DNA of 64,000 bases, taken from a phage. The position numbers and the translations under genes were made by a program. The DNA lies in the sequence record PX441839.1. The stretch is one strand, 5' to 3'. This document shows, in pieces, positions 57,115-62,112 of the stretch; positions within the stretch are counted from its first letter, which is position 1, and each line of letters begins with the position of its first letter. The notes beneath the pieces were generated by a model, which was given only the letters and a program-made list of their open reading frames with translations, did no database searches and was not told the origin of the DNA.

Positions 57115-59613
57115 ATGATACCTTTCCCATTATTAGGTGGAAAATCACCAACTCCACCACCGCCACTTCCAAAGGGCGTTTCTGGGTACTCAGGAACTAC
57201 CTACATAGGTGAAGATGGTGAAACTTGGTCTTGGAACAGGCAACTGGAGAGATGGATTAAAAAAGATCCGTTTCCAGTTGACGAAGGGCATCCTGAACAC
57301 TTCATGGTGGGGCCTGCAAAGATAGGCACAGATGGTTCTTTCCGATACTTCAATACTGTAACCAACGCTTGGGAAGATGTTCCTAACGGGAGCACCTTGG
57401 GGATGGTCCCTCTGACCCTGACAGATGAAGGCGTAAACATAGGGACATCGGTATTTGTAGAGTATCCCATTTATCAATCCGCTGGGTATGCCGTAGGTCT
57501 TGGAGGGTTCGCAAGACTGCTTGGGACGGAGGTACTGGGAAGACCAGATCTTATGGACCTGTACCTTATAGGAAGAAGAGGGGATTTCTTTTCACCTTCT
57601 CCTGCAAACCCTGACTCCACCAACGCAATTCTCGTAATTCGAAATGTTAAAAGGGATAGGGTGTGGAATACTTACCTGAACATGGTTGTGGAAACAAGTG
57701 ATGGGGAGATGTGGGCTTGGGGAATGAACTTCTATAATCAGTACGGCCCTTGGATAAGAAGCGGAGTAACAAGTTCCAGTCAACCACACATGAAGATAAA
57801 CCCATTCTCTAAAATATCTGATTTTCCAGTACCACCTGAGAAAATAAAAGATATCTTCCCCGGTGTAACAATGGTCATAGTTGCAGACACTGACGGGAAA
57901 TTCTGGTCCAAAGGGATTAACATTGGTCAGTTTAACGATATTGATGACCAAATTAGGACAGCCTGGGTAGAGATACCCGCAGATAGGTTCCCAGGGTTTA
58001 AAAAGTTTTATCGGAGTCTTAACGGAACAGGTGCCGCCAATGATCTTGCTTACACCAACTGCGTTTGGTATTTGACAGATACAGGGATAAGACATTTTGG
58101 AAATGTGTATGGAGTGATGGACGGTTCCCCACTTGTATCTGCAACAACTAGGGATCTCCCTGACAGTAAAGTTCACTCAGCCCCTGTAGGATTGCCTGAA
58201 AGGAATGATGAGCCTAAAATAGTGAGTTTTTCACTGGCCAGATCTTCTGACTATATCCTTATTGCTGTTTGGTATGATGACCCCGAAGAGATGTATGTTG
58301 CCTATCCTACTTCTGGACTTATTTGGGACCACGCAGATGGAGTAACGTATGGGAGGAGATTCAATAAATCCTCAGCCCCTGTAGGGAAGCATAGGAACCC
58401 CATACTGGACTTCAATAAAGAGGCCACCCTTATAACGGGGTTTGATGGAAAATTCTATGCTTCTGGGACCCCAAGTGTAAATAACGGGCTATACTCAAGA
58501 ACCAGCCCAACCACTTTTATCGACCAGAAGATGCCATCCTCTCTCGTTTATCAGGTTGAGCTATCCGACTCTGTAAACGGAAAAACTCAACTGTTGAGAA
58601 ATGATAGGCGTTCTTTAATGATAGCCGACCTTTCGGGAGGAAGCAACTACTTTGGAAATGGAACTTTCTGGAAACCAACTGCAACGATTAAGTGGCCTGA
58701 CTATCCAGACGCAATTCCAATAGTGTTCAAGAATGATGGTGTCACTATCTCGGGATCTGCTGAAAGGGTAGATACGTTTTGGGGGTGGAATGTTAGCAAC
58801 TACAACACTGTCAGCAGTACAGCCGGAGACCAGTACGGTGCTCCCAGTGGGGATGCTGTGCATGTCTCAGGGGAAGGGCACCTTACAATCTGGAAAGATG
58901 ATAGCAGTATCCTTGTTGGTGGTTACAACATAGGTGGAGTGTTTGGTGCTTTTAACCAGTGGAAGCAACCACAAGGTGCTGGAAGGTGGGTAGGCACAGT
59001 AAGAGAGTCTTTTACTGGCACATCGACAGTAAGCTGCGGAACCACTATTGCTTGGGATGGAAAAGATCATTACATATTTGGCAAAAACTACTGGGATGTT
59101 GCAAACGGACAACCAGTAATAAAGTTCAGTTCCTCTGCACCTGTAAAATGGAACAGTAAACAGGGATACCCGAACCTCCCTAATTTTATAAAATGGATTC
59201 CTGCAATTATGGGATATTCTGATGACGAGGGTTCTTTGCAACAACCCTTCTTTATGTATCGGGGTACTGACGGTCTGTTTTATGCTGCGGGTAGCAATAC
59301 AACAGGTGCCTTGGCGACAGGGACCCCACCTGAGACAAGGGATGAGCAAAGATGGACTTTTGAGGTAATGAAGGGATCTGAGGTGTTTGTTGGTAAAAAT
59401 GTTAAGGTTTACCACGGACACGGAAATACCTCTTGTTTGTTGTTCGCTTGCGAGGGAAAGGTGTACGGTGTTGGATTACCTAACAGTATGAAATGGAATG
59501 ACACCGGAACCATCCCTGACCCGTTCTTCCCTGGTTTCAACAGAAGGCTTAATGAAATCACCTACCTGATGGATTTGCCGGATGTTATCTATACCCGACC
59601 AATAGAAGAATAA
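57115..59613 (+). CDS. RCC1-like beta-propeller repeat protein, probable tail protein (832 aa)
   Basis: repeated RCC1-type motifs GEMWAWGMNFYNQYG, GKFWSKGINIGQFND, GLFYAAGSNTTGALATG, GKVYGVGLPNS; AGGAG RBS. Confidence 0.5.
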   Translation: MIPFPLLGGKSPTPPPPLPKGVSGYSGTTYIGEDGETWSWNRQLERWIKKDPFPVDEGHPEHFMVGPAKIGTDGSFRYFNTVTNAWEDVPNGSTLGMVPLTLTDEGVNIGTSVFVEYPIYQSAGYAVGLGGFARLLGTEVLGRPDLMDLYLIGRRGDFFSPSPANPDSTNAILVIRNVKRDRVWNTYLNMVVETSDGEMWAWGMNFYNQYGPWIRSGVTSSSQPHMKINPFSKISDFPVPPEKIKDIFPGVTMVIVADTDGKFWSKGINIGQFNDIDDQIRTAWVEIPADRFPGFKKFYRSLNGTGAANDLAYTNCVWYLTDTGIRHFGNVYGVMDGSPLVSATTRDLPDSKVHSAPVGLPERNDEPKIVSFSLARSSDYILIAVWYDDPEEMYVAYPTSGLIWDHADGVTYGRRFNKSSAPVGKHRNPILDFNKEATLITGFDGKFYASGTPSVNNGLYSRTSPTTFIDQKMPSSLVYQVELSDSVNGKTQLLRNDRRSLMIADLSGGSNYFGNGTFWKPTATIKWPDYPDAIPIVFKNDGVTISGSAERVDTFWGWNVSNYNTVSSTAGDQYGAPSGDAVHVSGEGHLTIWKDDSSILVGGYNIGGVFGAFNQWKQPQGAGRWVGTVRESFTGTSTVSCGTTIAWDGKDHYIFGKNYWDVANGQPVIKFSSSAPVKWNSKQGYPNLPNFIKWIPAIMGYSDDEGSLQQPFFMYRGTDGLFYAAGSNTTGALATGTPPETRDEQRWTFEVMKGSEVFVGKNVKVYHGHGNTSCLLFACEGKVYGVGLPNSMKWNDTGTIPDPFFPGFNRRLNEITYLMDLPDVIYTRPIEE

Positions 59614-59619
59614 CAACCA

Positions 59620-59654
59620 ATAAAAAGGCTCCCGAATGGGAGCCTTTTCTTTTA
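59620..59654. terminator. bidirectional rho-independent terminator
   Basis: AAGGCTCCC-GAAT-GGGAGCCTT flanked by A-run and T-run between convergent genes. Confidence 0.65.
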
Positions 59655-59658
59655 TGTA

Positions 59659-60858
59659 TTACAGGACATAAATCACGTGGTTAGGATATTGAAGCCCTAC
59701 CGGAGCGAAGGGGATGTCATCATCGAAATCCATAACATCTGGGGTGTAGTCCAGATGACCATCATCGCTTACCGGAACTTGAGGATTAGTATCCTGAGGT
59801 TTTTGTTCCAGTTGAGGTTCAGGGGCTTTTTCTGGAGACGCGTCTTTCCGAACAAGGTCTTCTGTCGCATTGATGAATCGGAAGGTTGTTTCCACATTCT
59901 CAATAAACTGATCAATACCTTCTTGACTGTGTCGAGCAGCCAAGATACCGGATTGGCCCAGACGAGCACCAAACGCATAATCATCCATACCTTTGAACTC
60001 TTCCCGCAGCTTGGCCTTGATGGTATCCATAGCTTTCAGAACCTGCACCACAATAATTTGCTGATCGACGATAGCTGCATTTGGGAACATTGCATCTGTG
60101 ATAGTCAGTGCGTTGCCTAAACGAATCGGCAAGTCATCCTTTCCACCTTTACGGGAACCACCTGCACCACCTGCACCTTTTGGACCATAAGCCTTGAAAG
60201 CACTGATTGAACCATCAGCCGCCCGCTGACCAGCCAAACGACCACCCTCTTGGATCTGGGAGAGTTGCTCGTCTGACAGCTTAACGGTAACATCGCCATT
60301 ATCTGTCTTCACTACAACGTCTGAGCCGCTCACAGAGACGATTTCTCCGTAAACCTTAGTGGTTGCACCACCTGCACCTTGAGAGCCTCCCTGAGGTGTC
60401 TGAGAGCCTTGCGGAGCTACATCTCGAGCACCAGATGCATCGGTAATTTTAATTTTGTTCTTTTTACCCTCGGTGGAGGTTCGTTCATTACCCTCTCGGT
60501 CTTTGTAATATTTAACCTGCACTGGTAGACGAATCTTCATGCCTGGTTTAAGGCTTACATATTTGTCACCTTCTTTGATCTGGAACTGATCTTCGTATTT
60601 CAAGTTCTTAACTTCACCTTCTCCAAAAGAGATCCAAGCTGAATCTTCACCTTCTTTCAACAGGATAGAATAGCGATGGGTAGACTTGATAGTCTTACCT
60701 GCATTTGGACCCTTGTTGATGTGGGTGATTTTAGGACTACCGTCCTCATTGATACGTTTGATATTGATACGTTCAATTGTTCCAGCGGCGACGTGTACAG
60801 TCACATCATTAACAGCATCATAAACAGAGTTAACAACTTGAATTTTAACTTCGGACAT
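59659..60858 (-). CDS. SSB-like protein with acidic MDFDDDIPF motif
   Basis: near-C-terminal DVMDFDDDIPF identical to the E. coli SSB acidic tip, preceded by Gly/Gln-rich linker, but followed by 15 more residues (APVGLQYPNHVIYVL). Confidence 0.45.
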   Translation of the reverse strand: MSEVKIQVVNSVYDAVNDVTVHVAAGTIERINIKRINEDGSPKITHINKGPNAGKTIKSTHRYSILLKEGEDSAWISFGEGEVKNLKYEDQFQIKEGDKYVSLKPGMKIRLPVQVKYYKDREGNERTSTEGKKNKIKITDASGARDVAPQGSQTPQGGSQGAGGATTKVYGEIVSVSGSDVVVKTDNGDVTVKLSDEQLSQIQEGGRLAGQRAADGSISAFKAYGPKGAGGAGGSRKGGKDDLPIRLGNALTITDAMFPNAAIVDQQIIVVQVLKAMDTIKAKLREEFKGMDDYAFGARLGQSGILAARHSQEGIDQFIENVETTFRFINATEDLVRKDASPEKAPEPQLEQKPQDTNPQVPVSDDGHLDYTPDVMDFDDDIPFAPVGLQYPNHVIYVL

Positions 60859-60931
60859 TTATTTCTCCTTCGGAATTAAGCCTCGTTTGAGGCCGGAACA
60901 ACATATTATCACAAATACTTAGATTTGCAAC

Positions 60932-61306
60932 TTACAAGTAGACACGTTGGACTTCTTTGTCTGCCTTTTCGAACATCATGTTTGCCATGTTAATATCCTT
61001 GATCACCACCTCTGTAATCTCGTCCGGACGAAAAGCCTTAAGTGACCGTTTAAAGATGATAGTCGGATCTTCACATGGATCACCTGATGTGTCAAACAAT
61101 TTCACCAGCATCTTAACAGGAACTTGACAAGACACCTTTCCCCCATAGTTGATTGCATACGCTGCGCCGACCTCTGCCTGACGGTCTCCCAGTTCATACA
61201 CCAAATTCAGGTTTACATATTTACAACCTTGACCTGCCGTTATGTTCTTTGTTGCAGAGATGCAGTTCCAACCTGGTTCAATAAAGGTGTTGTCAAAAAT
61301 GCTCAT
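60932..61306 (-). CDS. hypothetical protein
   Basis: ORF track 60932..61324. Confidence 0.4.
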   Translation of the reverse strand: MSIFDNTFIEPGWNCISATKNITAGQGCKYVNLNLVYELGDRQAEVGAAYAINYGGKVSCQVPVKMLVKLFDTSGDPCEDPTIIFKRSLKAFRPDEITEVVIKDINMANMMFEKADKEVQRVYL

Positions 61307-61371
61307 GGTGAAATCTCCTTTCATTAAGTTATGGGTCTATTATATAAGACCCACCTCAATTAAGTCAACAC

Positions 61372-61728: not shown

Positions 61729-62112
61729 TTATTTTCTCCCCTTCTTACGGTGATAAACTCCACGTTTGGACAGAGGAATTTCCTCTGCATCTCTTCCATC
61801 AACACCATCTTCACCAGGTTCACCTTGAGGACCCATTGGACCTGCTGGTCCCATTGGCCCCATAGGTCCTACAGGTCCAGTGACAACACGAATGTCTTTA
61901 GGTTTGTACAGAGAATAACCCAAGCATCCAAACCAACCGATAAGTGTAATTACGCTCGGAGGCAAAAGGAAGAAGATAACAGTAAAGACAGAGATCATCC
62001 ACTTATTCCTGTGATCCTTCTTCCATGCGATAATTATTGGGGAAAAACTAATTGCCAATAAAATTAACAGAAAAACAAGACCGAGAGTGATGGCAGCTTC
62101 TGCAATTATCAT
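61729..62112 (-). CDS. membrane protein with short collagen-like segment
   Basis: two hydrophobic segments followed by TGPVGPMGPMGPAGPMGPQGEPGEDGVDG. Confidence 0.4.
   Translation of the reverse strand: MIIAEAAITLGLVFLLILLAISFSPIIIAWKKDHRNKWMISVFTVIFFLLPPSVITLIGWFGCLGYSLYKPKDIRVVTGPVGPMGPMGPAGPMGPQGEPGEDGVDGRDAEEIPLSKRGVYHRKKGRK

What the first reader, a model, noticed from the sequence alone, without database searches (positions are those of the whole stretch)
59659..60858. SSB-like protein carrying the SSB acidic tip internally, followed by 15 extra residues
The sequence MDFDDDIPF, identical to the C-terminal acidic tip of bacterial SSB that recruits partner proteins, appears here preceded by a Gly/Gln-rich linker but followed by APVGLQYPNHVIYVL before the stop. 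In canonical SSBs the terminal Phe must be free. Either this is a divergent phage SSB with a masked or regulated tip, or a tip mimic that competes for host SSB-interacting proteins.
Basis: partly seen in the sequence, partly recalled or inferred. Interest (0 to 1): 0.55.

Follow-up and report, generated by a model that had tools for sequence, protein, structure and literature searches.

The report
Phage SSB-like protein with capped tip
This phage's single-stranded-DNA-binding-like protein carries the host SSB docking tip followed by a real, conserved 15-residue cap. In related phages the cap is the leading edge of a mobile endonuclease gene inserted exactly after the tip's last codon; that gene is absent here, but the cap is kept by selection.

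Summary
ORF 59659-60858 (minus strand, 399 aa) ends ...MDFDDDIPF(384)-APVGLQYPNHVIYVL-stop.

It is not a missed stop. An independent genome, Salmonella phage SSBI34, has the same tail, and 34 of 120 homologue clusters carry a 14-16 residue tail of the same motif. The other homologues stop right after ...IPF.

New here: the same cap (AP[IV]GLQY...hydrophobic-x-small-hydrophobic) also ends ordinary OB-fold SSBs and primase/helicases of unrelated phages. In many of these the start codon of an HNH-type endonuclease gene lies inside the cap's codons.

Bas54 equals Bas52 plus a 640-nt cassette (cap plus endonuclease) placed exactly between the Phe codon and the stop. The window's own clade has all three states: P0003 short, P0002 cap plus endonuclease, and the window cap only.

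Substitutions in the cap are mostly synonymous in the SSB reading frame, so the peptide is selected. What it does to the tip is unknown.

The parts
59659..60858 (-). Whole ORF, 399 aa, SSB-like protein (phrog_4477; homologue of Bas52_0087)
   Evidence: phrog_4477 E 7e-92; 27% id, E 6e-28 over the full length to Bas52_0087
60865..60870 (-). Shine-Dalgarno AAGGAG, 6 nt upstream of the ATG at 60858
   Evidence: read from the sequence
60439..60837 (-). N-terminal beta-rich OB-fold-like domain (aa 8-140)
60364..60423 (-). Gly/Gln-rich disordered linker 1 (aa 146-165)
   Evidence: pLDDT below 50 for aa 151-163; sequence
60184..60363 (-). Second small beta-barrel (aa 166-225), holding invariant G171, G206, R207, Y224
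   Evidence: weak Pfam SH3-like match for aa 171-196; the preprint describes 'two OB-fold domains' in Bas52_0087
59839..60141 (-). Four-helix domain (aa 240-340). Invariant D241 corresponds to D252 of Bas52_0087, the site of the DRT10 escape mutation D252V
   Evidence: preprint 10.64898/2026.04.29.721553, which calls it a putative oligomerisation interface
59734..59838 (-). Disordered Pro/Gln/acidic tail (aa 341-375), including the semi-conserved GH(L/I)D(Y/M)(T/S)P element
59707..59733 (-). SSB-Ct tip MDFDDDIPF (aa 376-384); P383 and F384 are invariant in the family
59662..59706 (-). 15-codon cap APVGLQYPNHVIYVL (aa 385-399). Homologous to the 5' edge of the phrog_2340-type endonuclease cassette of relatives; the endonuclease start codon (CAT GCx) is mutated here to CAC GTG
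59659..59661 (-). Stop codon TAA. Similarity to cassette-bearing alleles ends here; 2 nt further on, the flank of the short allele resumes
59622..59649 (.). Bidirectional intrinsic terminator shared with the convergent 832-aa gene. No endonuclease gene fits between the stop codon and the terminator
   Evidence: tblastn of five cassette endonucleases against the window found no hit
60932..61324 (-). Upstream DUF7325 gene, a conserved neighbour of the SSB-like gene in every relative inspected. Sigma70-like promoter (11/12 match) at 61339-61368

Best explanation
The ORF is the SSB-like protein of a Vequintavirinae phage.

Domains (modelled): an N-terminal OB-like domain, a second small beta-barrel, a four-helix domain and a long disordered acidic tail carrying the host-type SSB-Ct motif.

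Role of the tip (inferred): by analogy with bacterial SSB and with T7 gp2.5/gp4, the tip is the docking peptide for partner proteins. Candidates are the phage's family-A DNA polymerase and primase/helicase, and host SSB-interacting proteins such as ExoI.

Origin of the cap (shown by comparison): in this phage the tip is capped by 15 residues. The cap is the 'cap-only' state of a recurrent three-state polymorphism. A free-standing HNH-type endonuclease cassette sits exactly between the Phe codon and the stop codon of tip-encoding genes. Its first 45 nt are read in the host gene's frame as AP[IV]GLQY...hydrophobic-x-small-hydrophobic, and the endonuclease start codon lies inside those codons.

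History in this lineage (inferred): the window's lineage probably received a phrog_2340-type cassette and later lost the endonuclease gene. The cap, its stop codon and the old downstream flank remain.

Selection (shown): the cap is kept by purifying selection on the peptide, whether or not the endonuclease is present.

Function of the cap (inferred, unproven): it has to stay compatible with, or to modify, tail function. It could act as a second docking element, as a removable or tolerated cap that keeps the tail usable, or as a change of partner specificity. At the DNA level it also splits the probable endonuclease target site.
For: Identity and fold:
- phrog_4477, E 7e-92.
- AF2 model pLDDT 82 with the stated domains.
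- Full-length homology to Bas52_0087, E 6e-28, with D241 equivalent to escape site D252.

T7-like logic:
- SSBI34 encodes a DNA polymerase I and a primase/helicase ending ...DDSDWDDQPPF*.
- T7 gp2.5 tail function is summarised.

The cap is real and recurrent:
- SSBI34 and 34 of 120 clusters carry it.
- The same cap ends OB-fold SSBs of HK75, Valp1, ECH1, ESh4 and an E. coli prophage, and primase/helicases of KpS8 and KE23.
- IMG/VR gave 38 loci and GTDB species genomes gave 8.

Cassette:
- Bas54 = Bas52 + 640 nt placed exactly between the Phe codon and TAA. Eight of the 25 nt next to the junction differ, against 13 of the next 575.
- The endonucleases are homologous across four gene contexts and match phrog_2340/phrog_1035 'endonuclease'. 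Bas54's is annotated 'putative homing endonuclease'.
- The window's clade has P0003 (short), P0002 (cap plus 161-aa endonuclease) and the window (cap only). The window's flank after the stop matches the short allele's flank.
- P0011 keeps a truncated endonuclease remnant.
- Of 10 capped alleles inspected in this family, 5 have the endonuclease and 2 have remnants. Of 5 short alleles, none has it.
- Fitch parsimony gives at least 20 state switches among 117 family members.

Selection:
- In the SSB frame pS is about 0.78 and pN 0.21-0.29; in the other two frames pN/pS is about 1 or higher (0.97-2.7).
- P0002 vs P0077: 9 synonymous and 0 non-synonymous differences (P = 2.6e-6). Window vs P0077: 9 vs 3 (P = 4e-4).
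- No capped allele has a decayed or truncated cap.
Against: - No experiment on this protein: ssDNA binding, oligomeric state and tip partners are all inferred.
- The direction of events in this lineage is inferred from three alleles. The cap could instead be older than the endonucleases.
- A 14-codon variant (..LQYPALLxCM) on many marine-phage SSBs never has an endonuclease next to it. This fits an ancient, independently functional motif that the endonucleases merely exploit.
- Homing activity of the endonuclease is not demonstrated, and Pfam gives no hit for it.
- What the cap does to tip binding is unknown. Canonical pockets use the free carboxylate of the terminal Phe (PMC5872125), so a capped tip should bind them poorly. 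Yet D-I-P-F stays invariant in capped alleles, which is unexplained.
Confidence: 0.7

Rival explanations
1. The cap is an old, independently functional second docking motif of phage SSB-type tails. It was inherited vertically here, and the HNH endonucleases only use it as a conserved landing pad or start-codon donor.
For: - 14-codon caps (APIGLQYPALLMCM and similar) sit on dozens of OB-fold SSBs of 40-55 kb phages and prophages. None has an endonuclease nearby, their downstream genes are ordinary, and synonymous sites are saturated.
- The most divergent members of phrog_4477 (Aeromonas, PVP-SE1-like and rV5-like phages) carry a cap.
Against: - Cap subtypes follow endonuclease subtype, not host gene. 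..(P/A)NHAIYVL occurs on the window-clade SSB-like gene and on the Seunavirus primase/helicase, and the closely similar ..AKHAIYVI on the Mydovirus one. ..GKSRI(H/Y)AL(S) occurs on the Vequintavirus SSB-like gene and on an E. coli prophage OB-fold SSB.
- Near-identical genomes differ by cap plus endonuclease as one block.
- At least 20 switches occur within the family.
Confidence: 0.2
2. The cap is a neutral scar of a lost homing endonuclease, tolerated because the tip is not important in this protein.
For: - The endonuclease is absent and its start codon is mutated (CAC GTG) in the window.
- Remnants of decaying endonucleases exist in relatives (P0011 and PVP-SE1).
Against: - There is a strong excess of synonymous change in the SSB frame in endonuclease-less alleles.
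- Every capped allele keeps 14-16 codons and the motif.
- P383 and F384 of the tip are invariant and D377, F378, D379, D381 and I382 nearly invariant (90% or more) in both capped and short alleles.
Confidence: 0.07
3. One reading: the protein is mainly a tip mimic or decoy that competes for host SSB-interacting proteins. The cap then tunes or hides the tip, for example to avoid defence systems that sense it.
For: - The tip is identical to the host's.
- The homologue Bas52_0087, whose tip is uncapped, is needed to trigger DRT10. ExoI dosage modulates that defence, and the authors propose competition with ExoI.
Against: - The protein has a full SSB-like architecture conserved across a whole subfamily, which is more than a decoy needs.
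- No data link capped versus uncapped alleles to defence sensitivity (one search found none).
- A capped Phe lacks the carboxylate used by the known pockets.
Confidence: 0.15
4. The cap is a C-terminal degron: a hydrophobic end such as ..YVL, ..YAL or ..MCM that gives regulated turnover of the SSB-like protein.
For: Inference only. The end is conserved as hydrophobic-x-small-hydrophobic with a free C-terminus, loosely like non-polar C-terminal tags recognised by AAA+ proteases (my own knowledge).
Against: - No test was possible.
- The conserved AP[IV]GLQY half is not explained by this reading.
- The cap occurs on proteins needed in large amounts.
Confidence: 0.05
5. A sequencing or annotation artefact: a missed stop after DDDIPF.
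For: None beyond the prior expectation that SSB tips are terminal.
Against: - An independent genome, SSBI34, has the same codons with synonymous differences.
- Dozens of independent assemblies carry the cap.
- Short alleles show no cap remnant after their stop.
Confidence: 0.01

Closest known systems
Bas52_0087 of Escherichia phage RudolfGeigy (Bas52), the 'SSB-like' trigger of the DRT10/UG17 defence (bioRxiv 10.64898/2026.04.29.721553)
   Same: - Full-length homologue (27% identity, E 6e-28) in the same PHROG-level family and the same phage subfamily.
- Same architecture: two beta-barrels, a helical domain and a disordered tail with FDDDIPF.
- Escape site D252 corresponds to invariant D241 here.
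   Different: - Bas52_0087 ends exactly at ...DDDIPF; the window protein has 15 more residues.
- The preprint does not mention capped alleles or the endonuclease cassette.
- The genomic position differs: it is next to the replication genes in Bas52, and at the end of an early leftward block beside the tail-fibre genes here.
Bacterial SSB (E. coli type) and its SSB-Ct tip
   Same: - Acidic tip MDFDDDIPF preceded by a Gly/Gln/Pro-rich disordered linker.
- OB-fold ssDNA-binding-like core.
   Different: - No Pfam SSB match.
- 399 aa, with two barrels plus a helical domain.
- The Phe is not C-terminal, so the carboxylate contact used by DnaG, ExoI, RecO, chi and PriA pockets (PMC5872125) is not available unless the cap is removed.
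T7 gp2.5 (SSB) and gp4 (primase-helicase) acidic C-terminal tails ending in Phe, which dock on the T7 family-A polymerase
   Same: - The close relative SSBI34 (96% nt identity to the window over the 2-kb segment compared) has a family-A polymerase, a gp4-like primase/helicase ending in an acidic ...DDQPPF, and an SSB-type protein with an acidic ...IPF motif.
- In Vequintavirinae both proteins show the same tip.
   Different: - No sequence homology to gp2.5 was tested or seen.
- The T7 tails need the terminal Phe (my own knowledge), whereas here the SSB-like tail is capped.
Free-standing homing endonuclease genes of phages ('intronless homing', e.g. T4 seg/mob genes); by analogy, inteins and group I introns that make insertion into conserved coding sequence harmless
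   Same: - Presence/absence polymorphism with exact boundaries between near-identical genomes.
- A cluster of substitutions next to the insertion site.
- Decay intermediates.
- Insertion next to a very conserved coding motif.
   Different: - The cassette sits between the last sense codon and the stop codon, so it adds a translated 15-residue peptide to the host protein.
- It does so in at least three unrelated gene families that share only the tip.
- The added peptide is itself under purifying selection.
- Homing has not been shown experimentally.

Membership tests
Bacterial-type SSB (Pfam SSB family) | Sequence match to the SSB OB-fold family | tested here: not met
   hmmscan against Pfam-A gave no SSB hit, even at E up to 1. 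phmmer against PDB sequences gave no hit.
Bacterial-type SSB (Pfam SSB family) | OB-fold ssDNA-binding core | tested here: met
Bacterial-type SSB (Pfam SSB family) | Acidic SSB-Ct tip at the extreme C-terminus with a free Phe carboxylate | tested here: not met
   The tip occupies aa 376-384 of 399, and 15 residues follow it.
Bacterial-type SSB (Pfam SSB family) | Disordered low-complexity linker between core and tip | tested here: met
   aa 341-375 have pLDDT around 43-65 and are rich in Pro, Gln and acidic residues.
phrog_4477 / Bas52_0087-like SSB-like proteins of Vequintavirinae | Full-length sequence homology | tested here: met
   phrog_4477 E 7e-92 over profile positions 2-393 of 393. 127 homologues. 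Bas52_0087 E 6e-28.
phrog_4477 / Bas52_0087-like SSB-like proteins of Vequintavirinae | Two beta-barrel domains, a helical domain and a disordered tail with the (D/E)xDIPF motif | tested here: met
   Invariant residues are G26, H61, G106, G171, G206, R207, Y224, D241, G248, G297, G301, P383 and F384.
phrog_4477 / Bas52_0087-like SSB-like proteins of Vequintavirinae | ssDNA binding, oligomerisation, triggering of DRT10 | not testable with these tools
   Genetic data exist only for Bas52_0087.
Free-standing HNH homing-endonuclease cassette at SSB-tip codons | Endonuclease ORF present | tested here: not met
   The terminator follows the stop directly. tblastn of five cassette endonucleases against the window found no hit. 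The window therefore holds only the 45-nt leading edge.
Free-standing HNH homing-endonuclease cassette at SSB-tip codons | Leading edge homologous to cassette-bearing alleles, starting exactly after the Phe codon | tested here: met
   In the window against P0002 (cassette-bearing), 13 of the 15 cap residues are identical (the window differs at 2). Similarity stops at the TAA.
Free-standing HNH homing-endonuclease cassette at SSB-tip codons | Presence/absence polymorphism with exact boundaries, plus a substitution tract at the insertion site | tested here: met
   Bas52 against Bas54: a 640-nt cassette, with 8 of the adjacent 25 nt differing against 13 of the next 575. The trio P0003 / window / P0002.
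Free-standing HNH homing-endonuclease cassette at SSB-tip codons | Site-specific cleavage of cassette-less alleles and biased transmission | not testable with these tools
   Needs enzyme assays and phage crosses.

The most novel reading that the evidence does not exclude
A family of HNH homing endonucleases homes into the codons of the SSB C-terminal tip in unrelated replisome genes (OB-fold SSBs, the Vequintavirinae SSB-like protein, primase/helicases). It carries its own 15-residue 'adaptor' peptide.

The peptide would play the role that inteins and introns play for other homing endonucleases. It would keep the host protein working although the essential terminal Phe is capped: by being clipped off, by supplying a substitute docking element, or by re-targeting the tail. 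Its DNA would protect the allele from re-cleavage.

Cap-only alleles like the one in this window would then be selected 'immune' survivors. Capped and uncapped tips could also differ in how they engage host partners and SSB-sensing defence systems such as DRT10.
Probability: 0.3. Interest if true: 0.8.

Novelty: new variant of a known kind. Interest (0 to 1): 0.6.

Why it matters
The SSB C-terminal tip is one of the best-known docking peptides in bacterial DNA metabolism. It is thought to need a free terminal Phe, and phage SSBs are now known triggers of several defence systems.

A natural, widespread and selected capped form of the tip gives a direct way to ask what the free carboxylate is needed for in vivo. 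The cap toggles on and off between near-identical phages such as Bas52 and Bas54. That makes it possible to ask whether capping changes partner choice or defence sensing.

The link to an endonuclease cassette inserted between the last codon and the stop codon is also unusual for homing-endonuclease biology. It would be a mobile gene that appends a conserved peptide to its host protein and moves between unrelated genes that share only about 20-30 nt of coding sequence.

For annotation, these 'hypothetical proteins' can be labelled SSB-like, and the short ORF overlap at their 3' ends can be explained.

Tried and rejected
- Missed stop or readthrough remnant. The DNA after the stop of short alleles (CR3, UPEC06, F1M1E) encodes nothing like the cap. 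The apparent 1-399 tblastn coverage was a spurious extension through a stop.
- A second copy of the motif in the window: none found.
- A canonical SSB, primase/helicase or cassette endonuclease elsewhere in the window: none found.
- Pfam on the protein and on the endonucleases: no hits.
- PDB sequence searches with the whole protein and with the tail: nothing useful.
It was a poor use of that cap.
- Literature search for the cap sequence (APIGLQY and variants) found nothing relevant. A search for homing endonuclease plus SSB plus stop codon also found nothing relevant.
- The DARNA preprint concerns T7 and T4 SSBs only.
- A clamp-binding-motif reading of the cap (QL[SD]LF-like) was considered from memory and dropped. 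The spacing and residues do not fit, and the spacing between Gln and the C-terminus varies.
- The pure 'cap is just the RBS and start codon of the endonuclease' idea was rejected as the sole explanation. Synonymous sites in the SSB frame are saturated while the peptide is kept, including in alleles without the endonuclease.
Full report
**1.

The minus-strand ORF 59659..60858 encodes 399 residues. It has a strong ribosome-binding site, AAGGAG, 6 nt before the ATG. Its end reads ...DGHLDYTPDV-MDFDDDIPF-APVGLQYPNHVIYVL-TAA.

A 12-bp-stem bidirectional terminator follows at once at 59622-59649. It is shared with the convergent 832-aa RCC1-like gene.

DDDIPF is the E. coli SSB-Ct hexapeptide (PMC5872125). 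The nine-residue string is also the tip of OB-fold SSBs of phages HK75 and Valp1. It is the only D[IV]PF motif in the window that lies close to the end of a long ORF.

**2. Where the window comes from and what the protein is**

The region is 96% identical in DNA to Salmonella phage SSBI34, a 141-kb member of Vequintavirinae, where the gene is annotated 'hypothetical protein'.

- Pfam gives nothing. PHROGs places the protein in phrog_4477, function unknown, E 7e-92.
- tblastn finds it in 282 phage records, mostly Vequintavirinae. The large protein collection gives 127 homologues.
- An AlphaFold2 model built on 72 homologues is confident (mean pLDDT 82). It shows a beta-rich domain (aa 8-140), a Gly/Gln linker, a small beta-barrel (aa 166-225), a second linker, a four-helix domain (aa 240-340) and a disordered tail.
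- Foldseek against viral models hits many proteins named single-stranded DNA-binding protein, E 1e-4 to 1e-2.

A preprint of April 2026 (10.64898/2026.04.29.721553) describes Bas52_0087 of phage RudolfGeigy. It calls the protein 'SSB-like', with two OB folds and a C-terminal FDDDIPF motif. Two escape mutations in it, D252V and Y351C, stop triggering of the DRT10 defence, and that defence is tuned by host ExoI.

The window protein is a full-length homologue of Bas52_0087 (27% identity, E 6e-28). D252 aligns with D241, an invariant column of the family.

The close relative SSBI34 also encodes a family-A DNA polymerase I and a primase/helicase ending ...DDSDWDDQPPF. The T7 arrangement, with acidic Phe-terminated tails on both SSB and helicase docking on the polymerase, is therefore a reasonable model for what the tip does. 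That model rests on my own knowledge plus the summary.

**3. The cap is real, conserved and not confined to this family**

Among 120 homologue clusters, 85 end exactly at ...(D/E)xD(I/V)PF. Another 34 continue with 14-16 residues of the form AP(I/V)GLQY-x-x-...-hydrophobic-x-(A/C/S/V)-hydrophobic (alignments). Short alleles have no trace of the cap after their stop.

A tblastn search with the tail peptide found the same capped tail on other proteins:

- Annotated OB-fold SSBs of temperate and T1-like phages: HK75, g341c, mEp235, ECP1, NM-3, ECH1, ESh4 and Vibrio phages.
- The primase/helicase of other Vequintavirinae: KpS8 ends ...DDDTPFAPIGLQYAKHAIYVI, and KE23 ends ...DDDTPFAPIGLQYANHAIYVL.

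A DNA-pattern scan for the codons of DIPFAP[IVM]GLQY found 38 loci in IMG/VR. It found only 8 among 185,579 species genomes, all gamma-proteobacterial prophage- or plasmid-like SSBs. An E. coli prophage SSB carries it too.

I found no mention of this peptide in the searchable literature.

**4. The cap is tied to a mobile endonuclease cassette**

In Bas54 (MaxBurger), KE23, ECH1 and ESh4 the capped gene is overlapped at its 3' end by a gene annotated 'putative homing endonuclease', 'endonuclease' or 'endonuclease VII'.

- The endonucleases share an N-terminal Cys-rich module (..CFKCG..KPL.EFYKH..MADGHLNKCKEC..). Most also share an HNH-like C-terminus, with 42-61% pairwise identity. Bas54's shares only the N-terminal module.
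- They match phrog_2340 'endonuclease' (E down to 2e-52) or phrog_1035 'endonuclease VII'.
- Their start codon lies inside the cap's codons: CAA T|ATG|G in L-Q-Y-G, or C|ATG|C in H-A.

Bas52 and Bas54 are near-identical around the gene. Bas54 has an extra 640 nt placed exactly between the Phe codon and the TAA. This is the 45-nt cap with its own stop plus the rest of the endonuclease gene, whose last codon now precedes the original TAA. Eight of the 25 nt just upstream of the junction differ, against 13 of the next 575. That is the pattern expected of a target-site or co-conversion tract.

The window's own clade shows all three states:

- P0003 (69% identity) ends at IPF-TAA. It is followed by TTCAGTAAGTTACG-CATAAAAGAAAAGGCTCCC, the terminator and the same convergent 832-aa gene.
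- P0002 (71% identity) has the cap APIGLQYPNHAIYVL and an overlapping 161-aa endonuclease.
- The window has the cap, TAA, two bases, and then the short allele's CATAAAAGAAAAGGCTCCC flank. The endonuclease start is mutated (CAT GCG to CAC GTG).

P0011 keeps the cap plus a truncated endonuclease remnant (KVCFKCGVLKPLTEFYKHPKMAR-stop). PVP-SE1 keeps a 41-codon stub.

Of ten capped alleles inspected in this family, five have the endonuclease, two have remnants and three are clean. None of five short alleles has it.

Cap subtypes go with endonuclease subtype rather than with the host gene. On a neighbour-joining tree of 117 family members, parsimony needs at least 20 switches between capped and short.

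**5. The cap is nevertheless a selected peptide**

In the SSB reading frame, synonymous differences are saturated (pS about 0.78) while non-synonymous ones are few (pN 0.21-0.29). In the two other frames pN/pS is about 1 or higher (0.97-2.7). This holds for alleles with and without the endonuclease, and for the last 7-8 codons, which my search pattern did not constrain.

- P0002 and P0077 share an identical 15-residue cap despite 9 nucleotide differences, all synonymous (P = 2.6e-6).
- The window against P0077 gives 9 synonymous and 3 non-synonymous differences (P = 4e-4).
- No capped allele has a truncated, frameshifted or unrecognisable cap.

So a neutral scar, or a mere RBS-plus-start-codon footprint, does not explain the cap.

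**6. How it most likely works**

Shown:
- The architecture and the family membership.
- The position of the tip and the allele polymorphism.
- The cassette boundaries in relatives.
- Purifying selection on the cap.

Inferred:
- The protein coats ssDNA through its barrels and oligomerises through the helical domain.
- Its acidic tail recruits the phage polymerase or helicase and/or host SSB partners.
- The window's lineage acquired the cap with a phrog_2340-type cassette and then lost the endonuclease gene.
- The cap splits the probable endonuclease recognition site, so cap-only alleles may be immune to re-invasion.

Unknown:
- What the cap does to the tip. Known SSB-Ct pockets use the free carboxylate of the last Phe, so an intact cap should weaken those contacts. 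Yet D-I-P-F stays invariant in capped alleles.
- Three possibilities remain open, and I cannot rank them with confidence: the cap is removed, it supplies a compensating or alternative docking element, or the relevant partner does not need the carboxylate.
- An alternative history also remains plausible (about 0.2). The 14-codon caps of marine-phage SSBs never have an endonuclease next to them. Caps may therefore be an old functional motif that the endonucleases exploit.

**7. Comparison, novelty and verdict**

The protein is a member of the Bas52_0087/phrog_4477 SSB-like family. It is not a member of the Pfam SSB family, although it resembles that family in fold and tail logic. The closest mechanistic analogies are the T7 gp2.5/gp4 tails for the tip and free-standing phage homing endonucleases for the cassette.

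I found no earlier description of three points: a capped tip, its recurrence on three unrelated gene families, and its selection as a peptide. I rate this a new variant of a known kind, with moderate-to-high interest (0.6). The SSB-like identity is already in a preprint and the cap's function is unproven. The Bas52/Bas54 pair makes the open questions directly testable.

Noticed in passing
window 60932-61324 (-), promoter-like site 61339-61368 (-): A DUF7325 gene (PF24011, E 1.5e-22) lies directly upstream of the SSB-like gene here and in every relative inspected (L060-L066; bas52_0086). An 11/12 sigma70-like promoter precedes it. The two genes look like a conserved unit, so DUF7325 may be a functional partner.
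   Followed up: partly
window 57115-59613 (+): A convergent 832-aa protein with weak RCC1-like repeat matches sits at the end of the tail-fibre block. It shares the bidirectional terminator at 59622-59649 with the SSB-like gene.
   Followed up: partly
window 61729-62112 (-): A 127-aa ORF combines a superinfection-immunity-like membrane N-terminus (PF14373, E 3.6e-5) with a collagen-like GPxGPxG run (PF01391, E 1.8e-5).
   Followed up: no
L068 2614-3337 (E. coli GN04592 prophage); also L035 and L039: An OB-fold SSB ends ...DFDDDIPFAPMGLQYGKSRIYALS. The start codon and leader typical of the cassette endonuclease (MAKAGST..) now head an unrelated 97-aa ORF. The endonuclease seems to have been replaced while its translation start was kept.
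   Followed up: partly
L006 (KpS8), L011 (KE23), L009 4500-4691 (Bas52), L067 8182-8400 (SSBI34): The Vequintavirinae primase/helicase also ends in an acidic ...(D/E)xPF tail and shows the same three states: short (Bas52, SSBI34), cap only (KpS8), and cap plus endonuclease (KE23).
   Followed up: partly
L016 and L025 (Aeromonas-type 120-140 kb phages); P0116-P0120: Shorter proteins (about 240-270 aa) are related to about 39% of the SSB-like protein (one search does not say which part). They carry caps of the marine type (APIGLQYPQLLWSM / ..PQLLLVM) with no endonuclease nearby.
   Followed up: no
L009 4750-7803 (Bas52): The DNA polymerase gene of Bas52 is annotated as joined from two pieces. 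It is therefore interrupted, presumably by another mobile element, in the same replication module.
   Followed up: no
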